DNA of 64,000 nucleotides from the human T2T-CHM13v2.0 reference genome, Homo sapiens. The notes below the pieces were generated by a model. It had not been told where the DNA came from. It searched no databases and saw only the letters and a list, made by a program, of their open reading frames with translations. The position numbers and the translations under genes were made by a program. Below, piece after piece: positions 22,551-50,531 of the stretch. Within the stretch, counting starts at the first letter, position 1; the number at the start of each line of letters is the position of its first letter. Location of the stretch: the NCBI RefSeq assembly GCF_009914755.1, contig NC_060927.1; one strand, given 5' to 3'.

Positions 22551-23177
22551 GAATAAAAACAATATTGTCATGAGAAATCAGAAGCTGGACACACTGGTCA
22601 TGACCTTCTAAGGATGTAAGGAAGCCTTCGCCTTTTATGTTCCTCTAATTTTACTGCATGATCTCACAGGGAAATGAGTGGAGCAAGTGGCTCATCAGCC
22701 ACCTTGGCCTCTGAAAAGAATTGTCCCAGAAGCCATCTCTCTATCAAACCTGGCTAATTTCTTCTCTCCTCCTTCAGCTCTGGCCTCTTCCTGCTCACCT
22801 CTGCCAATCTCCTTTCCTTCCACTCAAAGTCTGGCCACAACAAAAAAGAAAGCAGGTTTGGAGAGAGGTCAGTATGCTGGGTTATTGTCAAAGGAGTTAT
22901 GTGTGTTTGTGTGTTTCTGCAAAAGTGCATTCTGCTGCTGCTAAATTGTCATTCCATACACTATCTACATTGGAAAGATCTTTCTCAAAAAAAAAAAAAA
23001 AGAAAGAAATATACTTTTGAAAATTCCTGCAATGCCTACTGTGACAGTGACATCAGAAGTCTATTTGTTCTTCACAAGTATAATTCATGGAGCTTTATTG
23101 AAACCATATCATTTGATCACTCAACAATATTCAGCAAATCTTTGTGGGGTGCTCTCTATGGTTCTGGGAAATATAAT

Positions 23178-23375
23178 GTGAGAGTGGGCGGCTGAATCAT
23201 GGTCCTCAGAGATGTCCATAGCTTTATCCTGAAACTTGTGAATAAGTTACTTCCTATAGCAATACTTACACATGTGATTGAGGTAAGGATCTTGAGACAG
23301 GGAGCTTATCCTGCAATATTTGGGTGGGCCCAAATAATCACAGAGATCTTTACAAGGAAATAGGCAGAAGAGTCA
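23178..23375 (+). mobile_element. MLT1 LTR 5' fragment
   Basis: ggctgaatcatggtcctcagagatgtcca..catgtgattgaggtaaggatcttgaga..gggtgggcccaaataatcaca. Confidence 0.75.
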
Positions 23376-24126
23376 AGATAGTTGTTGTCCTTGCAAAGTA
23401 TTTTTTGCAACTTCCCAGTCTCCCATCATTACCGGGGACACAGTTATGCAAATATAGCCTCCATTTTTATAAGAAATGAAGGAATTAAAAAATAGAAGTA
23501 GATGAAAACTATTTAGCAACATATATTTTAATTATAAAATTAGGAGGCACAGATTCCCCTTTCCAATTAGTTTTTAAGTCAAATCAATCAAATTTCAAAG
23601 AGCAGTTATGCATTTATTTTTAAAATTTAATTAGGAAGAAATTCGAAGCAATTAATGAATGTTATCAATTATAATGCATTACCATGAGAAAACCCCAACA
23701 ACCCTTAAGTATGATTGAATATTTTGTACTCTGTAATGATGAACTAGGCTTAGCCATTTAAAAAAATTAACTCCTGAGCTTAAAATAATCTCAACAAGTC
23801 AAACAGGTCTAAGTGAACCTGCAGTGAACCTAGGAGAGAACTTTCTCATGCTACACCCTTCTTTGCAGTAATGGGAGGGTTTGATCTCAGAGGGAATACC
23901 TTTGTTTCATCGTGTCCTGTTAATATATTAATAAGTTCAATTGCCAGCTGTTCATTTTCATGATGACACAGGGATATCTTTATTTCTATTTATCCTGTAT
24001 ATAATCAGGGGCACCATGACCCTCTTCTTTGAAATGAATGATTTCAAGCTTAATGGAAATTTAAAGTACTATATAGCAAAACTCTATGATCTGAGTCCTG
24101 GAGGGGAAGGGGTGAGTAGACATTAG

Positions 24127-24639
24127 ATAATAAATCCCCAATGAAAGCCAAGAGAACTCGAGAAAGCCTGACCATTTTGGTCCATAAAATGTGTCAGGGG
24201 TCAGTGCTCTGCAAATGGGAGGAGATGGGGAATGAAGGTTTCATAATTTAGTGATCACCCAAATGGTATCGGAGGAGTTTGAACTATAAAGAGAAAAGTA
24301 GTTGCCTCTTGCTGACCACCAAGATTGCTACAGGTTTCAAGGAAAGAGAGCGCTAGTCATCACGACCACTTCATTTGGTAATTATTTATGAAGTACCTTC
24401 CTGCCCTTGATGACGAATTCTTTCTTTCTTTGAAACCTGTAGCGATCTTGTTGGTCAGCAAGAAGCAACTACTTATTTCTTTATAGTTCAAACTCTTATG
24501 ATACAGTTGGGTGACCACTGAATTATGAATCCTTCTTTCCACATGTGCCATTTGCAGAGCACTGACCCCTGACACATTCCAAGTACAGAAATGGTCAGAC
24601 TCTCTTGAGTTCTCTTGGTTTTCACTGGCGATTTATCAT
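24127..24639. repeat. Long imperfect inverted repeat (fold-back palindrome, ~235-bp arms)
   Basis: Left arm 24127-24362 aligns to the reverse complement of 24408-24639 at about 197/236 positions by hand. There is a perfect 31-bp stem (24188-24218 with 24548-24578) and an inner ACTTCAT...ATGAAGT stem around TAATTA at 24379-24384. Confidence 0.97.
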
Positions 24640-26394
24640 TAAGGATGTAAGTATAACTTAACTTTAAAAAAGACTCGCATATATGAAAAAATCAGCATAA
24701 TCACATAGAAACGCAATTCAGGGATCAAAATGCTATTTTTAAAAAATCTTTTAAAAGTCTCCATTGTAAAAATGATTACTGCTCAACTCTGAGAAAAGTA
24801 ATGATACCAAAAGAGGTTAACCAGAATGAAATGTACAATGTTGGTAATTAATGATTACTTTAGATAACTATGTAAACATTTTTTCAGAGGCACTTGCTAT
24901 CAATTAGGAAAGCTACAATACACAGATAAGCAGGCCTTGTCCTGGTTTGTTCCATCGGCTAGAGAAGCAGCCTTTAGCTAGGGGTCTTTATTAAAAAGAC
25001 TTGTATACCTCCCATCTTGACAACCTAAAAGTTCATTCTCTGAACATAAACACAACCCGTTAAGTACCTGTCATGAGGTTATTACAAAACATATAAAAAT
25101 ATAAAACTTGGTCTTTGCACATTTATAACAGATTCAGGTTGTTTGGCTAAATGTACATTAAATGTTCAAGAGTCAGCAAGTTCTGGGTATGAAAACTAAT
25201 ATTTAAACAGAGAAATGCCTTTTCTGAGAAAGAAAACCCCTGCCACTGGCTTTGGAGAGTAAGAACACAAGCCAGCAGATGACAGGGAAGGACTCTATGC
25301 CACTAGTTAAAAATAAATGACAGAGAAGCCCATGCAAAAGCAGGCCAGAAAGATGTGAATTTAGAGAATGGCAAACAAAACAGCCAAAATAAGGTCAAGG
25401 ACAGATGTAAGACAGAAGGAAGTCAAAGCAGGAATGGCTTGAGTTTGAAGGCAAAGGCAGAATTCTGAATTTGACAGAGGGAGTGATGGGCAGCCATGTG
25501 GCTAGTTAGAGGGTGATTTAAAGTTGGCCAATGAAAGACAAAGTATGAAAGGGAAAATCAGTTCTTCAGAAATGATTATTAAAAATTCTTGAAGGCAAGC
25601 TACTTACAGCCATATTTCAGTACAAGCATGGTGAACACTGTATACCAATATAAGGAGTGTTCCTTATTTTAAATCTGTTCTCATCTATTTTCATGGATTT
25701 CACATATATATGACCCATTTCTGACAGCAGGGAAGGTCACTTTCATATTAATATTCAATATGTCACACCACTGTCATATCAACTATCCTCAGGCAGGTCT
25801 GATGGCTGGTTGACAGAAATGGGCATTTTGAGAGGAAATTCCCAGAACCAAGTAACCCAGCTGGAGAATACCGCTGCAGGAAAGACAGCAGTACTATATA
25901 TTAACTCAGCAGGGAAAACAGCTAAATTGTTCTTCCTGCTTATTAATAGACCAACATTTAGTCCAACAGCTCTAATTTTCTGTGGAATTTTTGACTTTCT
26001 CTCTTGAAAACTGAAAGTCATGTTAATGGTTTTCTGCATAATGCTTGTCTGTATGGTTTAGGGATGTGAGGGAAGATTTTTTCAAAATAGGGAAGCCGGT
26101 CCAAAGAATATTAGCCTTATCTTTTCCCTAAATACTATATATGTGAGACTATCTTAATTCAAAGGAGGCGATATAGTGAAAAGCTTTTCTGTGCTAGTTT
26201 TAGTAATAACTTGTAATAATGGGAAAAAAAGAAGATTAAGTTTGAGTGAATAATAGGACGCTAAAAAAGAAGATACTAACTTGGCTCTTAAGTTTTTAGT
26301 GGGACTTACTGCTTTGATTTATAAGCAATAATCATAGAGGCAGAAATGAGACAATCTAGCATCTAAGCATTCAAATGAACATTTTAAGAATTAA

Positions 26395-32766: not shown

Positions 32767-32938
32767 GTTAAAAATGTTTATGAAGCTTATAAAAATGCAT
32801 TCATTCAATCTGTTTTGGTTGTCACCTGATAGAAATTCTTGAAAAGGCAACCAGGTTCCTCTCTACTATATGGGACTATGAAATAGAGTTTTCTACATGA
32901 TAGTGAATGATAGTAATAAATATGTTTAACCATCTTCC

Positions 32939-33132
32939 TATCATTCAGTAACCAGTTTGTATACTATCTTATACAAGGTAAGTATTATCTTGTATTAAAT
33001 ATTAAAAATATTAATTAAAACATTAAATTAAAATTTAAAATATTAGTTTAATTAAAAATATTAAATTAAAATATAAAGATAAGTATTAATTATCTTGTAT
33101 AAGATAGTAAACAAACTGCTTACTGAATGATA
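32939..33132. repeat. AT-rich inverted repeat (43-bp arms, ~108-bp almost purely AT spacer)
   Basis: 32939-32981 matches the reverse complement of 33090-33132 at 40/43 positions. Confidence 0.93.
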
Positions 33133-34364
33133 AGTATTATCTTATGCTTATCTGATAATATAAGATAGTATACAATATCTTATACACTGTCTTATTATAT
33201 AAGATAAACTTACTAATAATTCTCTTTCAGAGTTTCATTGTACCATTAGTTAGCATCTAACTTAGGTAGAGAGTAAAGAGGCAAAGGTGGTGAACTGTGA
33301 TTCTATCTAATTTCTGATTTTTTCATTCTAGAAAAAGTTTAGGGGAAAAGAGAATAAAACTAGTGTAAATTGTAAGGTTTGGGGCTTTTTGGTGTCATCA
33401 ATTGGCAAACCTCTCCTAATTGTGTTCCTAATTAAGCTTTATTGGACTACACAATATTTAGAAGGGAAGAAAAAAGAGAGGGAGGAAGAAATTATTAATT
33501 CACAGAAACTTGATTTAATTGCCAATAGTTAAAAACCTTAAGATTTCACACAAAAATGAAGATTTCTATTTTTTCTTCTTAAAACAAGACAATATAGTCA
33601 CCCTAACTAAGCCTGTATTACCACAGGACAATACTGAGGGGTAGCTGTCCTGTTTAGGCAAGCTATACTCACCCTTCACCTTTTCCTGGCCAGGCTGGCT
33701 AAATTCTTTTATCCTCTTGATCCCTAAAGGCATTTTGTCCATGAGACCCTTCTGATCTAGGCCATCCTTCCTAACATTCTGGCCATTAAAATGAACACTT
33801 GGCATTTGATTAGCAGGTATAGATGCATAAAAGATGAATGAGAAAATATATGTCTTCTAGTCTGACTCTGACCTCAGAATCTAATGTCTTCCTAAATAAG
33901 AAAATACAGCACACATACCTACTTTTTAAACTATTTTCATCAGCTGACCAAAAATCTGGATTTTTCTGACATTGTCTTAAAAGGCAACAAACTAGTGACA
34001 TGCGAACAGAAACCACAGGTTTAAAGAACATTGCTGAAAATATTATACGTTTGGTATCTGTGCAAGTGTTTTCTCAGAGTGCTTTCATCTTTCCTATTTT
34101 TATTTTTTCTAAAAATAGGACTGTTTTAATATCAATATGTCATCAAATAATCCATTTAAGCAGCAGATTACCAGGCAAAACCAAGAAACATCAATAGATA
34201 GGAGTGTAAGACACTGTGTAGCCCTGCACTTCTCTGAAACAGCAGATCAGATTTCCCAGTGAGGACATTTGCCTTTAGAGTAGAGTTAGGCGCATTTGAA
34301 GGCTATAGGAGCTCTTCAGAGTCATGATGGTAGTAATTACTCAGTAACTGCTTTAGTGATTTAA

Positions 34365-35325: not shown

Positions 35326-36268
35326 TCCTCTTTTACTTTCTGATATTTATGTATTTATTATTTATTTATAAATATTTATATATTTATTTATTATACTTTA
35401 AGTTCTGCGGTACATGTGCAGAACGTGCAGTTTTGTTACATAGGTATGCACATGCCATGGTCGTTTGCTGCACCCATCAACCTGTCACCTACATTAGGTA
35501 TTTCTCCTAATGTTATCCCTTCCTTAGGCCCCCACCCCCCAACAGGCCCGGGTGTGTGAGTTCCCTTCCCTGTGTCCATGTGTTCTTGTTCAACTCCCAT
35601 TTATAAGTGAGAACATGTGGTGTTTGGTTTTCTGTTCCTACGATAGTTTGTGATAGCTTGCTGAGAATGATGGTTTCCAGCTTCATCCATGTCCCTGCAA
35701 AGGACATGAACTCATCCTTTTTATGACTGCATAGTATTCCATGGTGTATATGTGCCACATTTTCTTTATCCACTCTATCATTGATGGACATTTCGGTTGG
35801 TTCCAAGTCTTTGCTATTGCGAGTAGTGCTGCAATGAACATACCTGTGCATGTGTCTTTACAGTAGAATGATTTATAATCCTTTGGGTATATACCCAGTA
35901 ATGGGATTGCTGGGTCAAATGGTATTTCTAGCTCTAGATCCCTGAGGAATCACCACACCGTCTTCCACAATGGTTGAACTAATTTACACCCCCACCAACA
36001 GTGTGAAAGCGTTCCTCTTTCTCCACATCCTCTCTAGCATCTGTTGTTTCCTGACTTTTTAATGATCGTCATTCTAGCTGGCGTGAGATGGTATCTCATT
36101 GGGGTTTTGATTTGCATTTCTTGGATGACCAGTGATGATGAGCTTTTTTTCATGTTTGTTGGCTGCATAAATGTCTTCTTTTGAGAAGTGTCTGTTCAGA
36201 TCCTTTGCCTACTTTTTGATGGTTTTTTTATTGTAAATTTCTTTAAGTTCTAATATCCAGAATCTACA
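35326..36268 (-). mobile_element. 5'-truncated L1PA (L1PA7-like) with a ~20-nt 5' inversion
   Basis: Antisense L1 3'UTR (ttatactttaagttctg..tacatgtgcagaacgtgcag) and ORF2 end; TSD aaggtt(c/t)agttttt at 35312-35325 and 36269-36282. Confidence 0.93.
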
Positions 36269-37589
36269 AAGGTTTAGTTTTTATATAGGTACTTATAAAT
36301 ATTTTTATTTGAAAATGTATTTGTTTGTATTTTGGGGGCATAATATCACGCTCTTATTAATATATTCACAAGACATTTTGGTAAACAGAGCAGTTAAATT
36401 TTAGCCATTCAATTTTAAGAAATCACTTGAAACCATATGGGTTAGGCAGTGCCTAATGTTTTACCTGCTGTCCTCTTTTCTTTGCTTCCACTTCCTCTAA
36501 AAGATTATTATTCTATGCTCATTAAGGACATTTTATTTAGCACATTTTCTAAATGGCTTTTGAGAATGTATTATCTGGTGAACTCTGTCTTTAAACACCA
36601 AAATGGAAAGGTTAAAGTGACAGGCTTATCTATCCGAGATGTATCTTTCTAAAAATACGAGAAGGTTATTATTTTTTTTCTTGTTTCATACCATACTGGG
36701 TAAATGAATCTATGGGTTTAAATTATAAAGCAAACATCATCAGGAACATCACAGAGTTCAGAGATGATCAGACAAATTGCACTGAAAAAGTTTACCCTCA
36801 ATTATCTTTATCAGCAATGGGAAAAGTGACAGGATACATTCAAACCACTGTGTTGGGTTTGTAATATTCATGATTATTATTTTTGAACCAGATTTCTTTG
36901 TATTTCCTTAACATGTTTGTACAGACTAATATTTAAACAATTTTCTTTCATTCCTTTAATCTACTGTAATTAAAGGGAAGAGAACATAAAGCTTAACTTT
37001 ATAATTCACTAAGTAATGATTGGCTATCTTGAGAATTATTTGTCTATGAGATTGTAGCTCCAGAGTTATGCTGTAGTTATGACTGAGTGTCAGGTACTAA
37101 AACTTTTAGAGGATTCATCCAGAACTGCCTGGTCATAGAAAAGATGGGGAAAAGGTAAAATTTGTAAGAAGTGCTTCCAGGAATCTTAGTTTCTATTTAC
37201 TAAGATTCTGCTCCAGACAAAACGTCACAATTTTAGTTGATAAGCACTTCATGTGTTCTCTCATAAGGTTATGTAACTTCATCTAACTCTTACAGGGTTA
37301 TTTGTATTTTAGCAGAAGATTTGCATTTTAGCAGAAGATTCCAAAAGCCTGGAAAGTTGTAAAGCCCCCCAGAAGTATAAGAGCCTCACTGGTCAATTGT
37401 AGGGGTTTGCAGGCTAGAGGCTATGTATCTCTAAAATTTAATTCAAAACTGTATACATGTTTTATGCACACCATTTTCTAGGCAACAGTACAGACTCTTA
37501 AATGGTTCTGCAATCCCTAAAAGGTCAAGAACCACTGCTAATAATGGAATATGAGTCACTAAGAAAAAAGAATTCATCAGCATCACTTT

Positions 37590-47776: not shown

Positions 47777-49746
47777 ATTTTGATGGAGCTTAAATCTGCA
47801 ATAGGGGTTAAGGCATCTACATGCTTATCAGTGCATACTAAATTAATAATTGATAGTCTTTTAGAATTTGGGCCTCCAACATATATCTAATGCAATGTTG
47901 TGGTTTTAAATCCTTTTTCAGGCCTTCTTGATTTGGACCCACCATTCCAGTCCCTCAAGATCTCTCTAAATCCACACTCTGTAGTGGAGCATTTTGGCTC
48001 TCCTTCCCAGCTTTGTGGCCCTTGAACATTTGGTAAGCATGTCATCCATATCTTCATGGTGTCCCTTACAACATCCACAGAGAGGACTGAGGCAGAGAGC
48101 CAGAGGGCTTTGGCAGATCAACCCTCTCTAGTCTGCTGCTAATCCACAAAAACATCTCATGCATATGGTTGTTCAACTTGTGAAATTTCCTAAATACTAT
48201 CAGCCTGCATATCTCCATTTTATCCAAGATTACACCACGGAAGACTTACTTTGTTCTAAAAATAAAAGCCAGAAACAATCCTTATGAGTAGGGAAGCTAT
48301 GGATATTCTTCTGAGGCTTCCCTTTGTTCCTCCCTTTGCCTACTCTTTCCTGTCCCCACAACCAGAAGAATATGGCCTGGAAGCCAGGCAGACCCTCAAA
48401 ACCTTCAGACCAAAGGCATACCTCTGCTAAGAAGAGTTTCTTTTCTCTTTCAGGTATTTTTAGTCTTCATAGTCCTACAGAGTAGGACATTTTCCTTAAA
48501 AACATTTTTACAGAATTAGAAATTGAATCTCAGAAAAATTAAGCAATTTTTTCTCAGATCTTATCACCTAGCTAGTAGGGACACCCATATTTATAGTCCA
48601 GTCTGTCCACCAAGGTTCATACTTTGCCTGCTATGTTATATCAATACTACTGTGTCTATACATGCCAGGACAAATAAAAATGTTGAGGATCTTTGAGACC
48701 CTCTTAATCTACTCTTCATTCCAGAGAGTACTAAACTCAATTACTGATGGACAAAACAACACATATCCCAGCTACCTGAATGGCAACATCTTGAAACATC
48801 TATAGGAATCCAGCCCTCAGTAACTTCTGCAAGAATCCCCTAAGGCGTGAAGACTCATCTGGCCACAATTCCTTTTGTCCTGGAGACTACTGACCCCTAA
48901 AAAGGAATGTCAACTGTGCAAGGGGCTTTTACACAAAGCCAATTATCTCCTCCTACTCTCTCTGCCAATCTTGGAAAAGTCAAGTCCTGGACTTGTTAAA
49001 GAAGGTGATTCATCTCTGTGTGGAAAGAATGCCAACAGCAACTGTATAAAAGGTTTCTTTCTTCACATCCCTAATTCCTGAGGACCTGATAGTCACTTAC
49101 TGTAAGGTAAGTAATTGTGAGCTTCCAGATTTGGCAGACAGTTGAGTAATAATGGAAGGGAACACTATTCAGACCTTCTCTCACAGACAGGTTTCAAGGG
49201 AGTCCAATCAAATTGACTGACAGAAGATTCAATTCTTCTTGGTGAAATAAGAAACACAGGCTCGGGAGACCTTCAAGCAGCAAATTTGCACTCTTGTGCC
49301 CTTTTATTTATAAATTATAAATTTTTATAAATTCTTAATATTTACAAATTTATACATTCTTTTATCTTCCTATCTTAGGAGACTCAAGATGAGCTTATCT
49401 GTGACTCACCATCTGTCCTATGCTCTTATATACAATCTACTTCCTTCCCGTTCTTCATGTAAATGGACTGGCCAAAGCTTTCTGAGAGGATGAGTATTAT
49501 AATTAAGAAACAGAGTAGACAATAAGGCAAATGATAAATTTCACAAATAAACATGTAATAGAAACTTCAGCATTTTAACATGTAATAGAAAATATTGTTT
49601 ATAATTTTATTCTGAGAACCTAGCATGTTCTTCTAAAAGTTTCAACCATTTTGGCATATCAATTTTTAAAATACGATTAGTGATGCATTTATTCGTAGTC
49701 TCAGGACTCAGAAAACCAAAAGAGACAATTAAAAAGTTCATTGTAT

Positions 49747-50531
49747 TTCTCTAATGACCAGTGATGATGAGCTTTTTTTCATATGCTTGTTGGCCACATA
49801 AATGAGATACCATCTCACACCAGTTAGAATGGTGATCATTAAAAAGTCAAGAAACAACAGATGCTGTAGAGGATGTGGAGAAATAGGAATGCTTTTACAC
49901 TGTTGGTGGGAGTGTAAATTAGTTCAACCATTGTGGAAGACAGTGTGGTGATTCCTCAAGGATCTAGAACCAGAAATACCATTTGACCCAGCAATCCCAT
50001 TACTGGGTATATACCCAAAGGATTATAAATCATTCTACTGTAAAGACACATGCACACATATGTTTATTGCAGCACTATTCGCAACAGCAAAGACTTGGAA
50101 CCAACCCAAATGCCCATTAATGATAGATTGGATAAAGAAAATGTGGCACATATACACCACATATACTATGGAGCCATAAAAAAGGATGAGTTCATGTCCT
50201 TTGCAGGGACATAGATGAAGCTGGAAACCATCATTATCAGCAAACTATCACAGGAACAGAAAACCAAACACCACATGTTCTCACTCATAAGTTGGAGTGG
50301 GAACTCATAAGTGGGAACAAAGAGAACACATGGACACAGGGAGGGGAACATCATACACTGTGGCCTGTTGGGTGTTGGGGGATGAAGGGCTAGGGGAGGG
50401 ATAGCATTAGAAGAAATACCTAATGTAGATGACGGGTTGATGGGTGCAGCAAACCACCATGCCACGTGTATACCTATGTAACAAACCTGCATGTTCTGCA
50501 CATGTATCTCAGAACTTAAAGTATAATTTAA
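49747..50531 (+). mobile_element. 5'-truncated, 5'-inverted L1PA (L1PA7-like)
   Basis: Sense L1 from aatgagataccatctcac to cagaacttaaagtataat, preceded by an inverted block at ~49741-49804. 16-bp TSD aaaaagttc(a/g)ttgtat at 49731-49746 and 50532-50547. Confidence 0.95.

What the first reader, a model, noticed from the sequence alone, without database searches (positions are those of the whole stretch)
24127..24639. ~513-bp fold-back palindrome of unrecognised origin: potential ~240-bp dsRNA hairpin
Seen: 24127-24362 pairs with 24408-24639 at about 83% by hand alignment. It contains a perfect 31-bp stem (AATGTGTCAGGGGTCAGTGCTCTGCAAATGG, 24188-24218 with 24548-24578) and an 18-bp perfect block (GAGTTTGAACTATAAAGA). 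After one internal loop, pairing resumes (ACTTCAT/ATGAAGT) almost to the TAATTA apex at 24379-24384. The arms are complex, mixed-composition sequence, not Alu, L1 or low-complexity, and matches cluster in blocks separated by divergent patches. Inference: 83% arm identity is higher than expected if each arm had decayed like the eutherian-age MITEs in this window. It is therefore either (a) an ancient palindromic DNA-transposon relic (Eulor/UCON/MER13x class) kept by selection or arm-to-arm gene conversion, or (b) a local inverted duplication of roughly AluS age. If transcribed from either strand it would form a long stem suited to ADAR editing, Drosha/Dicer processing or dsRNA-sensor binding; as DNA it could extrude a cruciform.
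Basis: partly seen in the sequence, partly recalled or inferred. Interest (0 to 1): 0.85.

Follow-up and report, generated by a model that had tools for sequence, protein, structure and literature searches.

The report
Single-copy intronic inverted duplication in THRB
A real 513-base fold-back palindrome sits in an intron of the human thyroid hormone receptor beta gene; it seems to be a one-off local inverted duplication that has drifted neutrally, not a transposon family member or a selected RNA hairpin.

Summary
The palindrome is real. Arms 24127-24362 and 24408-24639 align over 236 columns with 37 mismatches (84.3%) and three small gaps, and include a perfect 31-bp block. Either strand folds as RNA into a ~240-bp imperfect stem (-319 and -315 kcal/mol, z about -30).

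It looks single-copy in the T2T genome. BLAST-type searches found only itself. Six exhaustive pattern scans gave chance-level extra hits, none extending beyond the seed. That excludes an abundant, same-age MITE family (power).

Nothing points to selection. Mismatches are not clustered (p 0.12 and 0.64). Neither strand has an excess of wobble-compatible changes (12 vs 9). No CpG survives at the same place in both arms. There is no Rfam match at threshold.

Arm divergence (K2P 0.177) falls within the range of Alu pairs in this window. That implies a neutral age of roughly 40-60 My, up to about 90 My.

Best reading: a local fold-back inverted duplication, now a neutral relic and a likely incidental ADAR substrate in THRB pre-mRNA. 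Conservation, Dfam membership and editing could not be tested.

The parts
24127..24362 (.). Left arm of the palindrome
   Evidence: Pairs with 24408-24639: 199 of 236 aligned columns identical after reverse complement, 3 small gaps.
24408..24639 (.). Right arm of the palindrome (inverted copy of the left arm)
   Evidence: The own-genome search reports it as the only match other than the query itself (83% over query 18-253, E 1.5e-62).
24363..24407 (.). Poorly paired centre: asymmetric internal loop (CGACC against ACCTTCCTGCCCT), a 7-bp mini-stem at 24368-24374 / 24388-24394, and a 13-nt apical loop at 24375-24387 that contains TAATTA
   Evidence: Sequence and folds. As single-stranded DNA, 24330-24430 folds at only -9.1 kcal/mol, z -1.19.
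24188..24218 (.). Perfect 31-bp block, left copy (the partner is 24548-24578)
   Evidence: The pattern scan with up to 3 mismatches finds exactly these two places in 3.1 Gb, and the reversed control finds 0. A run of 31 is not unusual given 37 mismatches in 236 columns (p 0.12).
24548..24578 (.). Perfect 31-bp block, right copy
24120..24126 (.). Possible weak outward extension of the pairing (ACAT..TTA) with 24640-24648. No target-site duplication is recognisable.
   Evidence: Folds and alignment. A scan of all boundary pairs found no direct repeat of 4 nt or more (exact), or 7 nt or more (up to 1 mismatch), beside matching termini. A 2-bp TA duplication cannot be judged, because TA is itself palindromic.

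Best explanation
This is a single-copy palindrome made in place. A stretch of about 250 bp of unique THRB intron DNA was copied once in inverted orientation, directly next to itself. The likely route is fold-back (hairpin-primed) repair synthesis or a replication template switch, possibly nucleated at the short central inverted repeat ACTTCAT/ATGAAGT. Since then both arms have drifted neutrally and independently, to about 16% divergence. That puts the event roughly in the AluS-AluJ era, about 40-60 My ago, or up to about 90 My with a slow clock. THRB is transcribed from the minus strand, so its pre-mRNA carries the element. The intron RNA should fold into a ~240-bp imperfect duplex with a longest perfect helix of 31 bp. 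Such a duplex is an expected incidental substrate for nuclear ADAR editing and is discarded with the intron. Shown here: the palindrome, its predicted fold, its single-copy status and its neutral-looking substitution pattern. Inferred: the fold-back mechanism, the date, the editing and the lack of function.
For: (1) Single copy by BLAST-type search. Searches of the whole T2T genome with the palindrome, with one arm (E up to 10) and with a 2.2-kb span return only the locus itself and its own other arm.
(2) Single copy by exhaustive pattern scans with up to 3 mismatches. The extra hits were 0 (31-mer), then 2, 2, 2, 1 and 30 for five 24-mers. The reversed-pattern controls gave 0, 0, 3, 2, 1 and 22. 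About 1.3 hits per 24-mer are expected by chance.
(3) No extended similarity. Of the 37 extra hits, 35 were delivered as loci and compared with the palindrome. None aligns beyond the seed; the longest alignment is 36 nt.
(4) Power. A copy at the arms' own 16% divergence would be caught with probability 0.95 for one arm and 0.997 for two arms. A neutral same-age transposon family is therefore excluded.
(5) The flanks 23376-25500 are also unique, and no other similarity exists within the 64-kb window. The only possible template is the neighbouring arm.
(6) Neutral pattern. There are 21 transitions and 16 transversions, not different from 2:1 (p 0.22). Seven of the 37 mismatches are at CpG, and no CpG is kept at the same place in both arms. 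Mismatches are spread evenly (p 0.12 and 0.64). Transitions that would keep a G-U pair number 12 on the + strand RNA and 9 on the - strand RNA. In the THRB-sense RNA, 28 of 37 differences therefore break pairing.
(7) Age yardstick. The 42 Alu-Alu pairs in this window are 69-88% identical, and the arms are 84.3% identical.
(8) No target-site duplication was found.
Against: No outgroup genome could be examined, so the key prediction (one arm missing in more distant mammals) is untested. Deep conservation cannot be ruled out.
No Dfam or Repbase library was available.
The BLAST-type genome search is weak on old repeats. A control palindromic repeat from this window returned only 3 other loci.
The pattern scans lose power beyond about 30-35% pairwise divergence.
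The centre is not a clean fold-back junction. An 8-nt length difference and a run of mismatches (24351-24367 against 24395-24419) need a secondary event or a complex junction.
Fold-back duplications described in the papers I listed are mostly large or somatic events (listings and the starts of abstracts only).
A TA target-site duplication of a Tc1/mariner-type element would be invisible here.
Confidence: 0.55

Rival explanations
1. It is the relic of a palindromic non-autonomous DNA transposon (MITE). Its family is either too old and diverged, or too low in copy number, for the tools here. Alternatively it is a curated Dfam family that I could not query. In this copy the arms would have been kept alike by intra-element gene conversion.
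For: The whole element is palindromic almost to its centre, as many MITEs are. TA dinucleotides sit at both edges (24124-24125 and 24640-24641). The genome search recovers old repeats poorly: 3 other loci for a control MITE-like repeat. Families with fewer than about 20-85 copies at 35-40% pairwise divergence would escape the 24-mer scans.
Against: No paralogue was found by three BLAST-type searches or six pattern scans. An old family implies arms far more diverged than 16%, unless conversion or selection acted. Identity along the arms shows no conversion-like patchiness (p 0.12 and 0.64). No target-site duplication of 4 nt or more was found. From recall only, the termini do not resemble hAT, piggyBac, Tigger or mariner ends; this was not tested.
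Confidence: 0.2
2. It is a selected element. One possibility is a conserved or primate-specific structured RNA in THRB pre-mRNA or an unannotated transcript, acting as an ADAR, Dicer or Drosha substrate or a regulatory hairpin. The other is a DNA-level regulatory palindrome. In either case the arms stay alike through purifying selection.
For: The predicted stem is very stable on both strands. By the dsRNAscan preprint, long non-repetitive hairpins are sparse in the human genome (PMC11838218, sections 9 and 10 and table passages read). Arm identity is higher than that of the old palindromic repeat in this window, which is 72-77%. GGTCA/TGACC 5-mers occur 7 times against 0.79 expected.
Against: There is no excess of pair-preserving changes on either strand, and 28 of 37 differences break pairing in the THRB-sense RNA. 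Mismatches are spread evenly, and CpGs have decayed independently in the two arms. Rfam gives no family at threshold; the best match is MIR391 at 21.3 bits against a gathering score of 70, E 0.35. The hub's gene table lists no RefSeq functional element or exon here. The GGTCA enrichment is only the fifth strongest 5-mer in the left arm, p 0.007 before correcting for 512 5-mers.
Confidence: 0.1
3. It is an assembly or sequencing artefact, such as a chimeric fold-back read.
For: Palindromes can arise as library artefacts (general knowledge).
Against: The arms differ at 37 positions and 3 indels. An artefactual fold-back would be a perfect copy. The window comes from a finished telomere-to-telomere assembly, according to the hub's annotation line.
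Confidence: 0.01

Closest known systems
Fold-back (hairpin-primed) inverted duplications and replication template-switch events
   Same: Both have two adjacent copies in inverted orientation, a short unique centre and a short central inverted repeat that could prime the fold-back. The template is local and unique. Papers listed: Hermetz et al. 2014 (PMC3907307), Li et al. 2020 (PMC7467729), Loytynoja and Goldman 2017 (PMC5453318), and the de novo miRNA template-switch paper (PMC10710096). I saw listings and the starts of abstracts only.
   Different: The described fold-back duplications are mostly kilobase-to-megabase, pathogenic or experimental events. The described short template switches are tens of bases, by my recall. 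This element is about 250 bp per arm, fixed and old. Its centre is not a clean junction.
Non-repetitive predicted long intronic dsRNAs (dsRNAscan catalogue; editing-enriched regions)
   Same: It is an intronic, intramolecular hairpin that does not overlap a detectable repeat. Its longest contiguous helix of 31 bp equals the median reported there for edited dsRNAs (PMC11838218, Table 1 passage).
   Different: At about 240 bp it is well above the reported medians for non-repetitive dsRNAs (75 bp unedited, 144 bp edited). About 84% Watson-Crick arm complementarity puts it below that paper's >96% paired class of putative MDA5 substrates. I could not check whether it is in that catalogue or is edited.
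Palindromic MITEs of the human genome and ancient conserved low-copy repeats
   Same: The architecture is a near-complete palindrome of a few hundred bases.
   Different: No other copy was found in the genome. No target-site duplication was found. Conservation is untested.
PATRR-type cruciform-forming palindromes (recalled from the literature; no call)
   Same: It is a palindrome of several hundred bp in an intron.
   Different: It is not AT-rich (41% G+C). The arms are only 84% alike. The centre is poorly paired. Cruciform extrusion and palindrome-mediated breakage are therefore not expected.

Membership tests
Interspersed MITE / non-autonomous DNA transposon family | Multiple dispersed copies in the genome | tested here: not met
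   Only the locus itself was found by BLAST-type searches. Six pattern scans gave chance-level hits, and none of the 35 loci examined (of 37 hits) extends beyond the seed. Power is 95% or more per copy at 16-20% divergence and low beyond 35%.
Interspersed MITE / non-autonomous DNA transposon family | Target-site duplication flanking terminal inverted repeats | tested here: inconclusive
   No direct repeat of 4 nt or more (exact), or 7 nt or more (up to 1 mismatch), lies beside symmetric termini. A 2-bp TA duplication cannot be told apart from the palindrome itself.
Interspersed MITE / non-autonomous DNA transposon family | Match to a curated consensus (Dfam/Repbase) | not testable with these tools
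Ancient conserved low-copy repeats (Eulor/UCON/MER13x class) | Orthologous conservation across distant vertebrates | not testable with these tools
   No non-human vertebrate genome or conservation track is held.
Ancient conserved low-copy repeats (Eulor/UCON/MER13x class) | Recognisable paralogues within the genome | tested here: not met
   None found. Copies more than about 35% diverged would escape.
Fold-back / template-switch inverted duplication | Adjacent inverted copies of a locally unique sequence with a short spacer | tested here: met
   The arms are 45 nt apart. The sequence is unique in the window and in the genome.
Fold-back / template-switch inverted duplication | Ancestral state with a single arm in outgroup species | not testable with these tools
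   No outgroup genomes are available.
Fold-back / template-switch inverted duplication | Short inverted microhomology at the turn-around point | tested here: inconclusive
   A 7-bp inverted repeat (24368-24374 / 24388-24394) surrounds a 13-nt loop. The adjacent 5/13-nt asymmetric loop is unexplained, and a 7-bp match could be chance.
Known structured RNA families (Rfam, including miRNA precursors) | Covariance-model score at or above the family's gathering threshold | tested here: not met
   The only match in 23000-26000 is MIR391, at 21.3 bits against a gathering score of 70, E 0.35.
Selected RNA hairpin | Arm differences biased toward pair-preserving (G-U) changes on the transcribed strand | tested here: not met
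   Wobble-compatible transitions number 12 (+ strand) and 9 (- strand) of 37 differences, and 16 are transversions. This compares the two arms within one genome and is not covariation across species.
ADAR substrate / editing-enriched region | Long intramolecular duplex within a transcribed region | tested here: met
   The predicted stem of about 240 bp folds at -314.9 kcal/mol on the THRB-sense (minus) strand. The intronic position comes from the hub's gene table.
ADAR substrate / editing-enriched region | Observed A-to-I editing sites | not testable with these tools
   No editing catalogue is held.
PATRR-type cruciform palindromes | AT-rich, near-perfect arms and a symmetric centre | tested here: not met
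   G+C is 41%, arm identity 84%, and the centre folds at -9.1 kcal/mol with z -1.19 as single-stranded DNA.

The most novel reading that the evidence does not exclude
A template-free birth of a long structured RNA. A single fold-back event in an ancestral primate created a ~240-bp hairpin inside the THRB pre-mRNA. The hairpin has since been retained as a working ADAR or Dicer substrate (for example an endo-siRNA or miRNA source, or an editing-dependent modulator of THRB intron processing). Alternatively the palindrome is much older and both arms are conserved across mammals as a single-copy exapted element.
Probability: 0.1. Interest if true: 0.55.

Novelty: new member of a known kind. Interest (0 to 1): 0.2.

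Why it matters
If the best reading holds, this is one more neutral structural relic. It has limited use. It is a datable example of a medium-sized (about 250 bp) germline fold-back duplication, a size between the short template switches and the large inverted duplications described in print. It is also a long non-repeat hairpin in a well-expressed intron, which can serve as a natural ADAR substrate that is not confounded by Alu multi-mapping. It would matter more only if both arms prove conserved beyond primates, or if small RNAs or regulated editing map to it.

Tried and rejected
1. An abundant MITE family is rejected. There are no paralogues, with a power estimate.
2. The 24-mer hits elsewhere are chance or an unrelated satellite-like repeat. 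They include C1:200144821, C3:181481342, C2:42944500, C18:37517380, C5:116677664, C9:94893363, C2:115826123 and 30 hits of an A/T-rich 24-mer, mostly one pericentromeric repeat word. The longest extension is 36 nt. Two of the 30 had no locus and were not examined.
3. Patchy identity as a sign of gene conversion or constraint is not significant.
4. A known RNA family or miRNA precursor is not supported: nothing reaches threshold.
5. Nuclear-receptor half-site (GGTCA) enrichment as a THRB-related regulatory clue is not significant after multiple testing.
6. Cruciform-prone DNA is unlikely, because the centre is weak.
7. A target-site duplication was not found.
8. A request for up to 6 mismatches was outside the tool's range, so I used 24-mers with up to 3 mismatches.
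9. Literature on this locus:
- 0 papers hold THRB together with 'long inverted repeat' and 'intron'.
- The three supplement files held as text for Barak et al. 2020 (PMC7006430) contain neither THRB nor my coordinate prefixes.
- The dsRNAscan preprint's main text has no THRB and no chr3.
These are narrow searches and do not show that the element is absent from genome-wide catalogues.
10. The search of earlier findings was not open. Paper reading closed, so the supplements of PMC11838218 were not seen and may list this hairpin.

Full report
**Observation.** The repeat finder reports three collinear inverted blocks:
- 24127-24218 with 24548-24639 (92 nt, 86%)
- 24225-24265 with 24504-24544 (41 nt, 85%)
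- 24259-24362 with 24408-24511 (104 nt, 84%)

A gapped alignment of the left arm to the reverse complement of the right arm gives 200 identities in 235 columns, with 3 gaps totalling 5 nt. A global alignment restricted to 24123-24362 gives 199 of 236 (84.3%), that is 37 mismatches. The perfect 31-mer (24188-24218 and 24548-24578), the 18-bp block and the central 7-bp mini-stem (24368-24374 / 24388-24394) around a 13-nt loop containing TAATTA are all present.

Folded as RNA, 24110-24655 gives -318.9 kcal/mol on the + strand and -314.9 on the - strand. One hundred dinucleotide shuffles average -139 and -130, so z is -29 and -30. One detail is not: the apparent clustering of matches into blocks is within chance. 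The longest run of 31 has permutation p 0.12. The variance of mismatches per 20-nt bin has p 0.64.

**Is it a member of a repeat family?** The window's own genome (3.1 Gb, 24 contigs) could be searched.
- BLAST-type searches with the whole palindrome, with one arm at E up to 10, and with a 2.2-kb span returned only the locus and its own other arm. In the 2.2-kb query only the first 76 nt (23300-23375) hit dispersed repeats, so 23376-25500 looks single-copy.
- This tool is weak on old repeats. A control, the palindromic repeat at 32895-33175, returned just 3 other loci at 74-78%.
- I therefore added exhaustive pattern scans with up to 3 mismatches. The 31-mer found only the two arms, with 0 in the reversed control.
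- Five 24-mers spread along the arm found both arms each time. Their extra hits were 2, 2, 2, 1 and 30, against reversed-pattern controls of 0, 3, 2, 1 and 22. About 1.3 are expected by chance for a uniform 24-mer.
- The 30 hits of the A/T-rich 24-mer are mostly one pericentromeric repeat word.
- Of the 37 extra hits, 35 came as loci. Together with 9 control loci, I compared them with the palindrome using a sensitive blastn. No alignment exceeds 36 nt, so none extends beyond the seed. Two hits without loci were not examined.
- Within the 64-kb window there is no other similarity to the arm.

**Power of the scans.** A copy as diverged from this one as the arms are from each other (16%) would be caught with probability 0.95 for one arm and 0.997 for two arms. 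At 30% pairwise divergence about 7 copies give a 95% chance of a hit. At 40% about 85 copies are needed. A transposon family of the same neutral age is therefore excluded. An ancient, highly diverged or very low-copy family is not.

**Signs of selection or conversion.** The 37 differences comprise 21 transitions and 16 transversions, which is not different from 2:1 (p 0.22). Seven are at CpG sites, and in each case the CpG survives in only one arm. This is what independent neutral decay predicts.

Transitions that would keep a G-U pair number 12 on the + strand RNA and 9 on the - strand RNA. In the THRB-sense (minus-strand) RNA, 28 of 37 differences therefore break pairing. Rfam gives no family at threshold; the best is MIR391 at 21.3 bits against a gathering score of 70, E 0.35. 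No boundary pair has a target-site duplication of 4 nt or more. A TA duplication would be hidden by the palindrome.

GGTCA/TGACC occurs 7 times against 0.79 expected. It is only the fifth most enriched 5-mer in the left arm, at p 0.007 before correction for 512 5-mers. I give it no weight.

**Age.** The Kimura distance between the arms is 0.177. If the arms were identical at birth and neutral since, that is 40 My at 2.2e-9 per site per year, 59 My at 1.5e-9 and 88 My at 1.0e-9 (the rates are my assumptions).

As an internal yardstick, 42 pairwise alignments among ten masked stretches in this window are 69-88% identical. I take these stretches to be Alus from their 5' sequence; the identification is by recall. 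The arms' 84.3% sits among the more similar pairs. Alus are CpG-rich and decay faster, so the palindrome is probably as old as or older than those Alus. The old palindromic repeat at 32910-33161 has arms only 72-77% alike.

**Mechanism.** The simplest account is a single in-place inverted duplication of about 250 bp of unique intron DNA. The route would be fold-back (hairpin-primed) synthesis after a break, or a replication template switch. The short central inverted repeat is a possible priming site.

The kind of event is described in papers I saw only as listings and the starts of abstracts: PMC3907307, PMC7467729, PMC5453318 and PMC10710096. This step is inference. The asymmetric 5/13-nt loop and the dense mismatches next to the centre do not fit a clean junction.

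THRB is on the minus strand and, by the hub's gene table, the element lies in an intron. The pre-mRNA should therefore form a ~240-bp imperfect duplex. By established knowledge of ADAR, such duplexes are promiscuously edited in the nucleus. This is expected but was not tested. As DNA, the centre (24330-24430) folds at only -9.1 kcal/mol, z -1.19, and 29 of 200 shuffles fold as well. Cruciform extrusion is therefore unlikely.

**Comparison with what is known.** The dsRNAscan preprint (PMC11838218; abstract, sections 9 and 10 and table passages read) reports that non-repetitive predicted dsRNAs are sparse. Their median lengths are 75 bp (unedited) and 144 bp (edited). Its putative MDA5-substrate class requires more than 300 bp and more than 96% pairing.

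This hairpin is long for a non-repeat dsRNA but too imperfect and slightly too short for that class, and it is intronic. I could not check whether it is in that catalogue, because paper reading closed. The supplements of PMC7006430 held as text do not mention THRB or my coordinate prefixes. A search for THRB with 'long inverted repeat' and 'intron' found 0 papers.

**What remains open.** No repeat library, no non-human vertebrate genome, no conservation track and no editing or small-RNA data were available. The decisive tests are therefore not done: a Dfam match, presence of one or both arms in outgroups, and observed editing.

**Verdict.**
- Single-copy, neutrally decaying inverted duplication: 0.55.
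- Undetected transposon relic: 0.2.
- Selected element: 0.1.
- Artefact: 0.01.
- The remainder is unassigned.

Interest is low (0.2).

Noticed in passing
window 35650-36274 and 49739-50362: Two masked stretches share 452 nt at 92.5% identity in inverted orientation, about 13.5 kb apart. They are probably two copies of a fairly young interspersed repeat. If co-transcribed in the THRB intron they could pair over a long range.
   Followed up: no
window 32910-33005 / 33066-33161: An old palindromic dispersed repeat (MITE-like). The arms are 72% complementary by the repeat finder and 77% by BLAST. Three other genomic loci match at 74-78%. I used it as a sensitivity control.
   Followed up: partly
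window 24127-24639: GGTCA/TGACC (the core of a nuclear-receptor half-site) occurs 7 times against 0.79 expected from the window's density. Only one mirrored pair is RGGTCA. The enrichment is not significant after correction for 512 5-mers.
   Followed up: yes
window 23300-23375: This is the end of an interspersed repeat, with six dispersed genomic matches at 78-82%. Everything from 23376 to 25500 otherwise looks single-copy.
   Followed up: no
G000 pericentromeric regions of C1, C7, C9, C16 and others (L035-L062): The A/T-rich 24-mer from 24275-24298 matches, with 3 mismatches, a word (GAATTTGGAATATAAAGAGAAAAG) that recurs in pericentromeric repeat arrays. It is unrelated to the palindrome.
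   Followed up: partly
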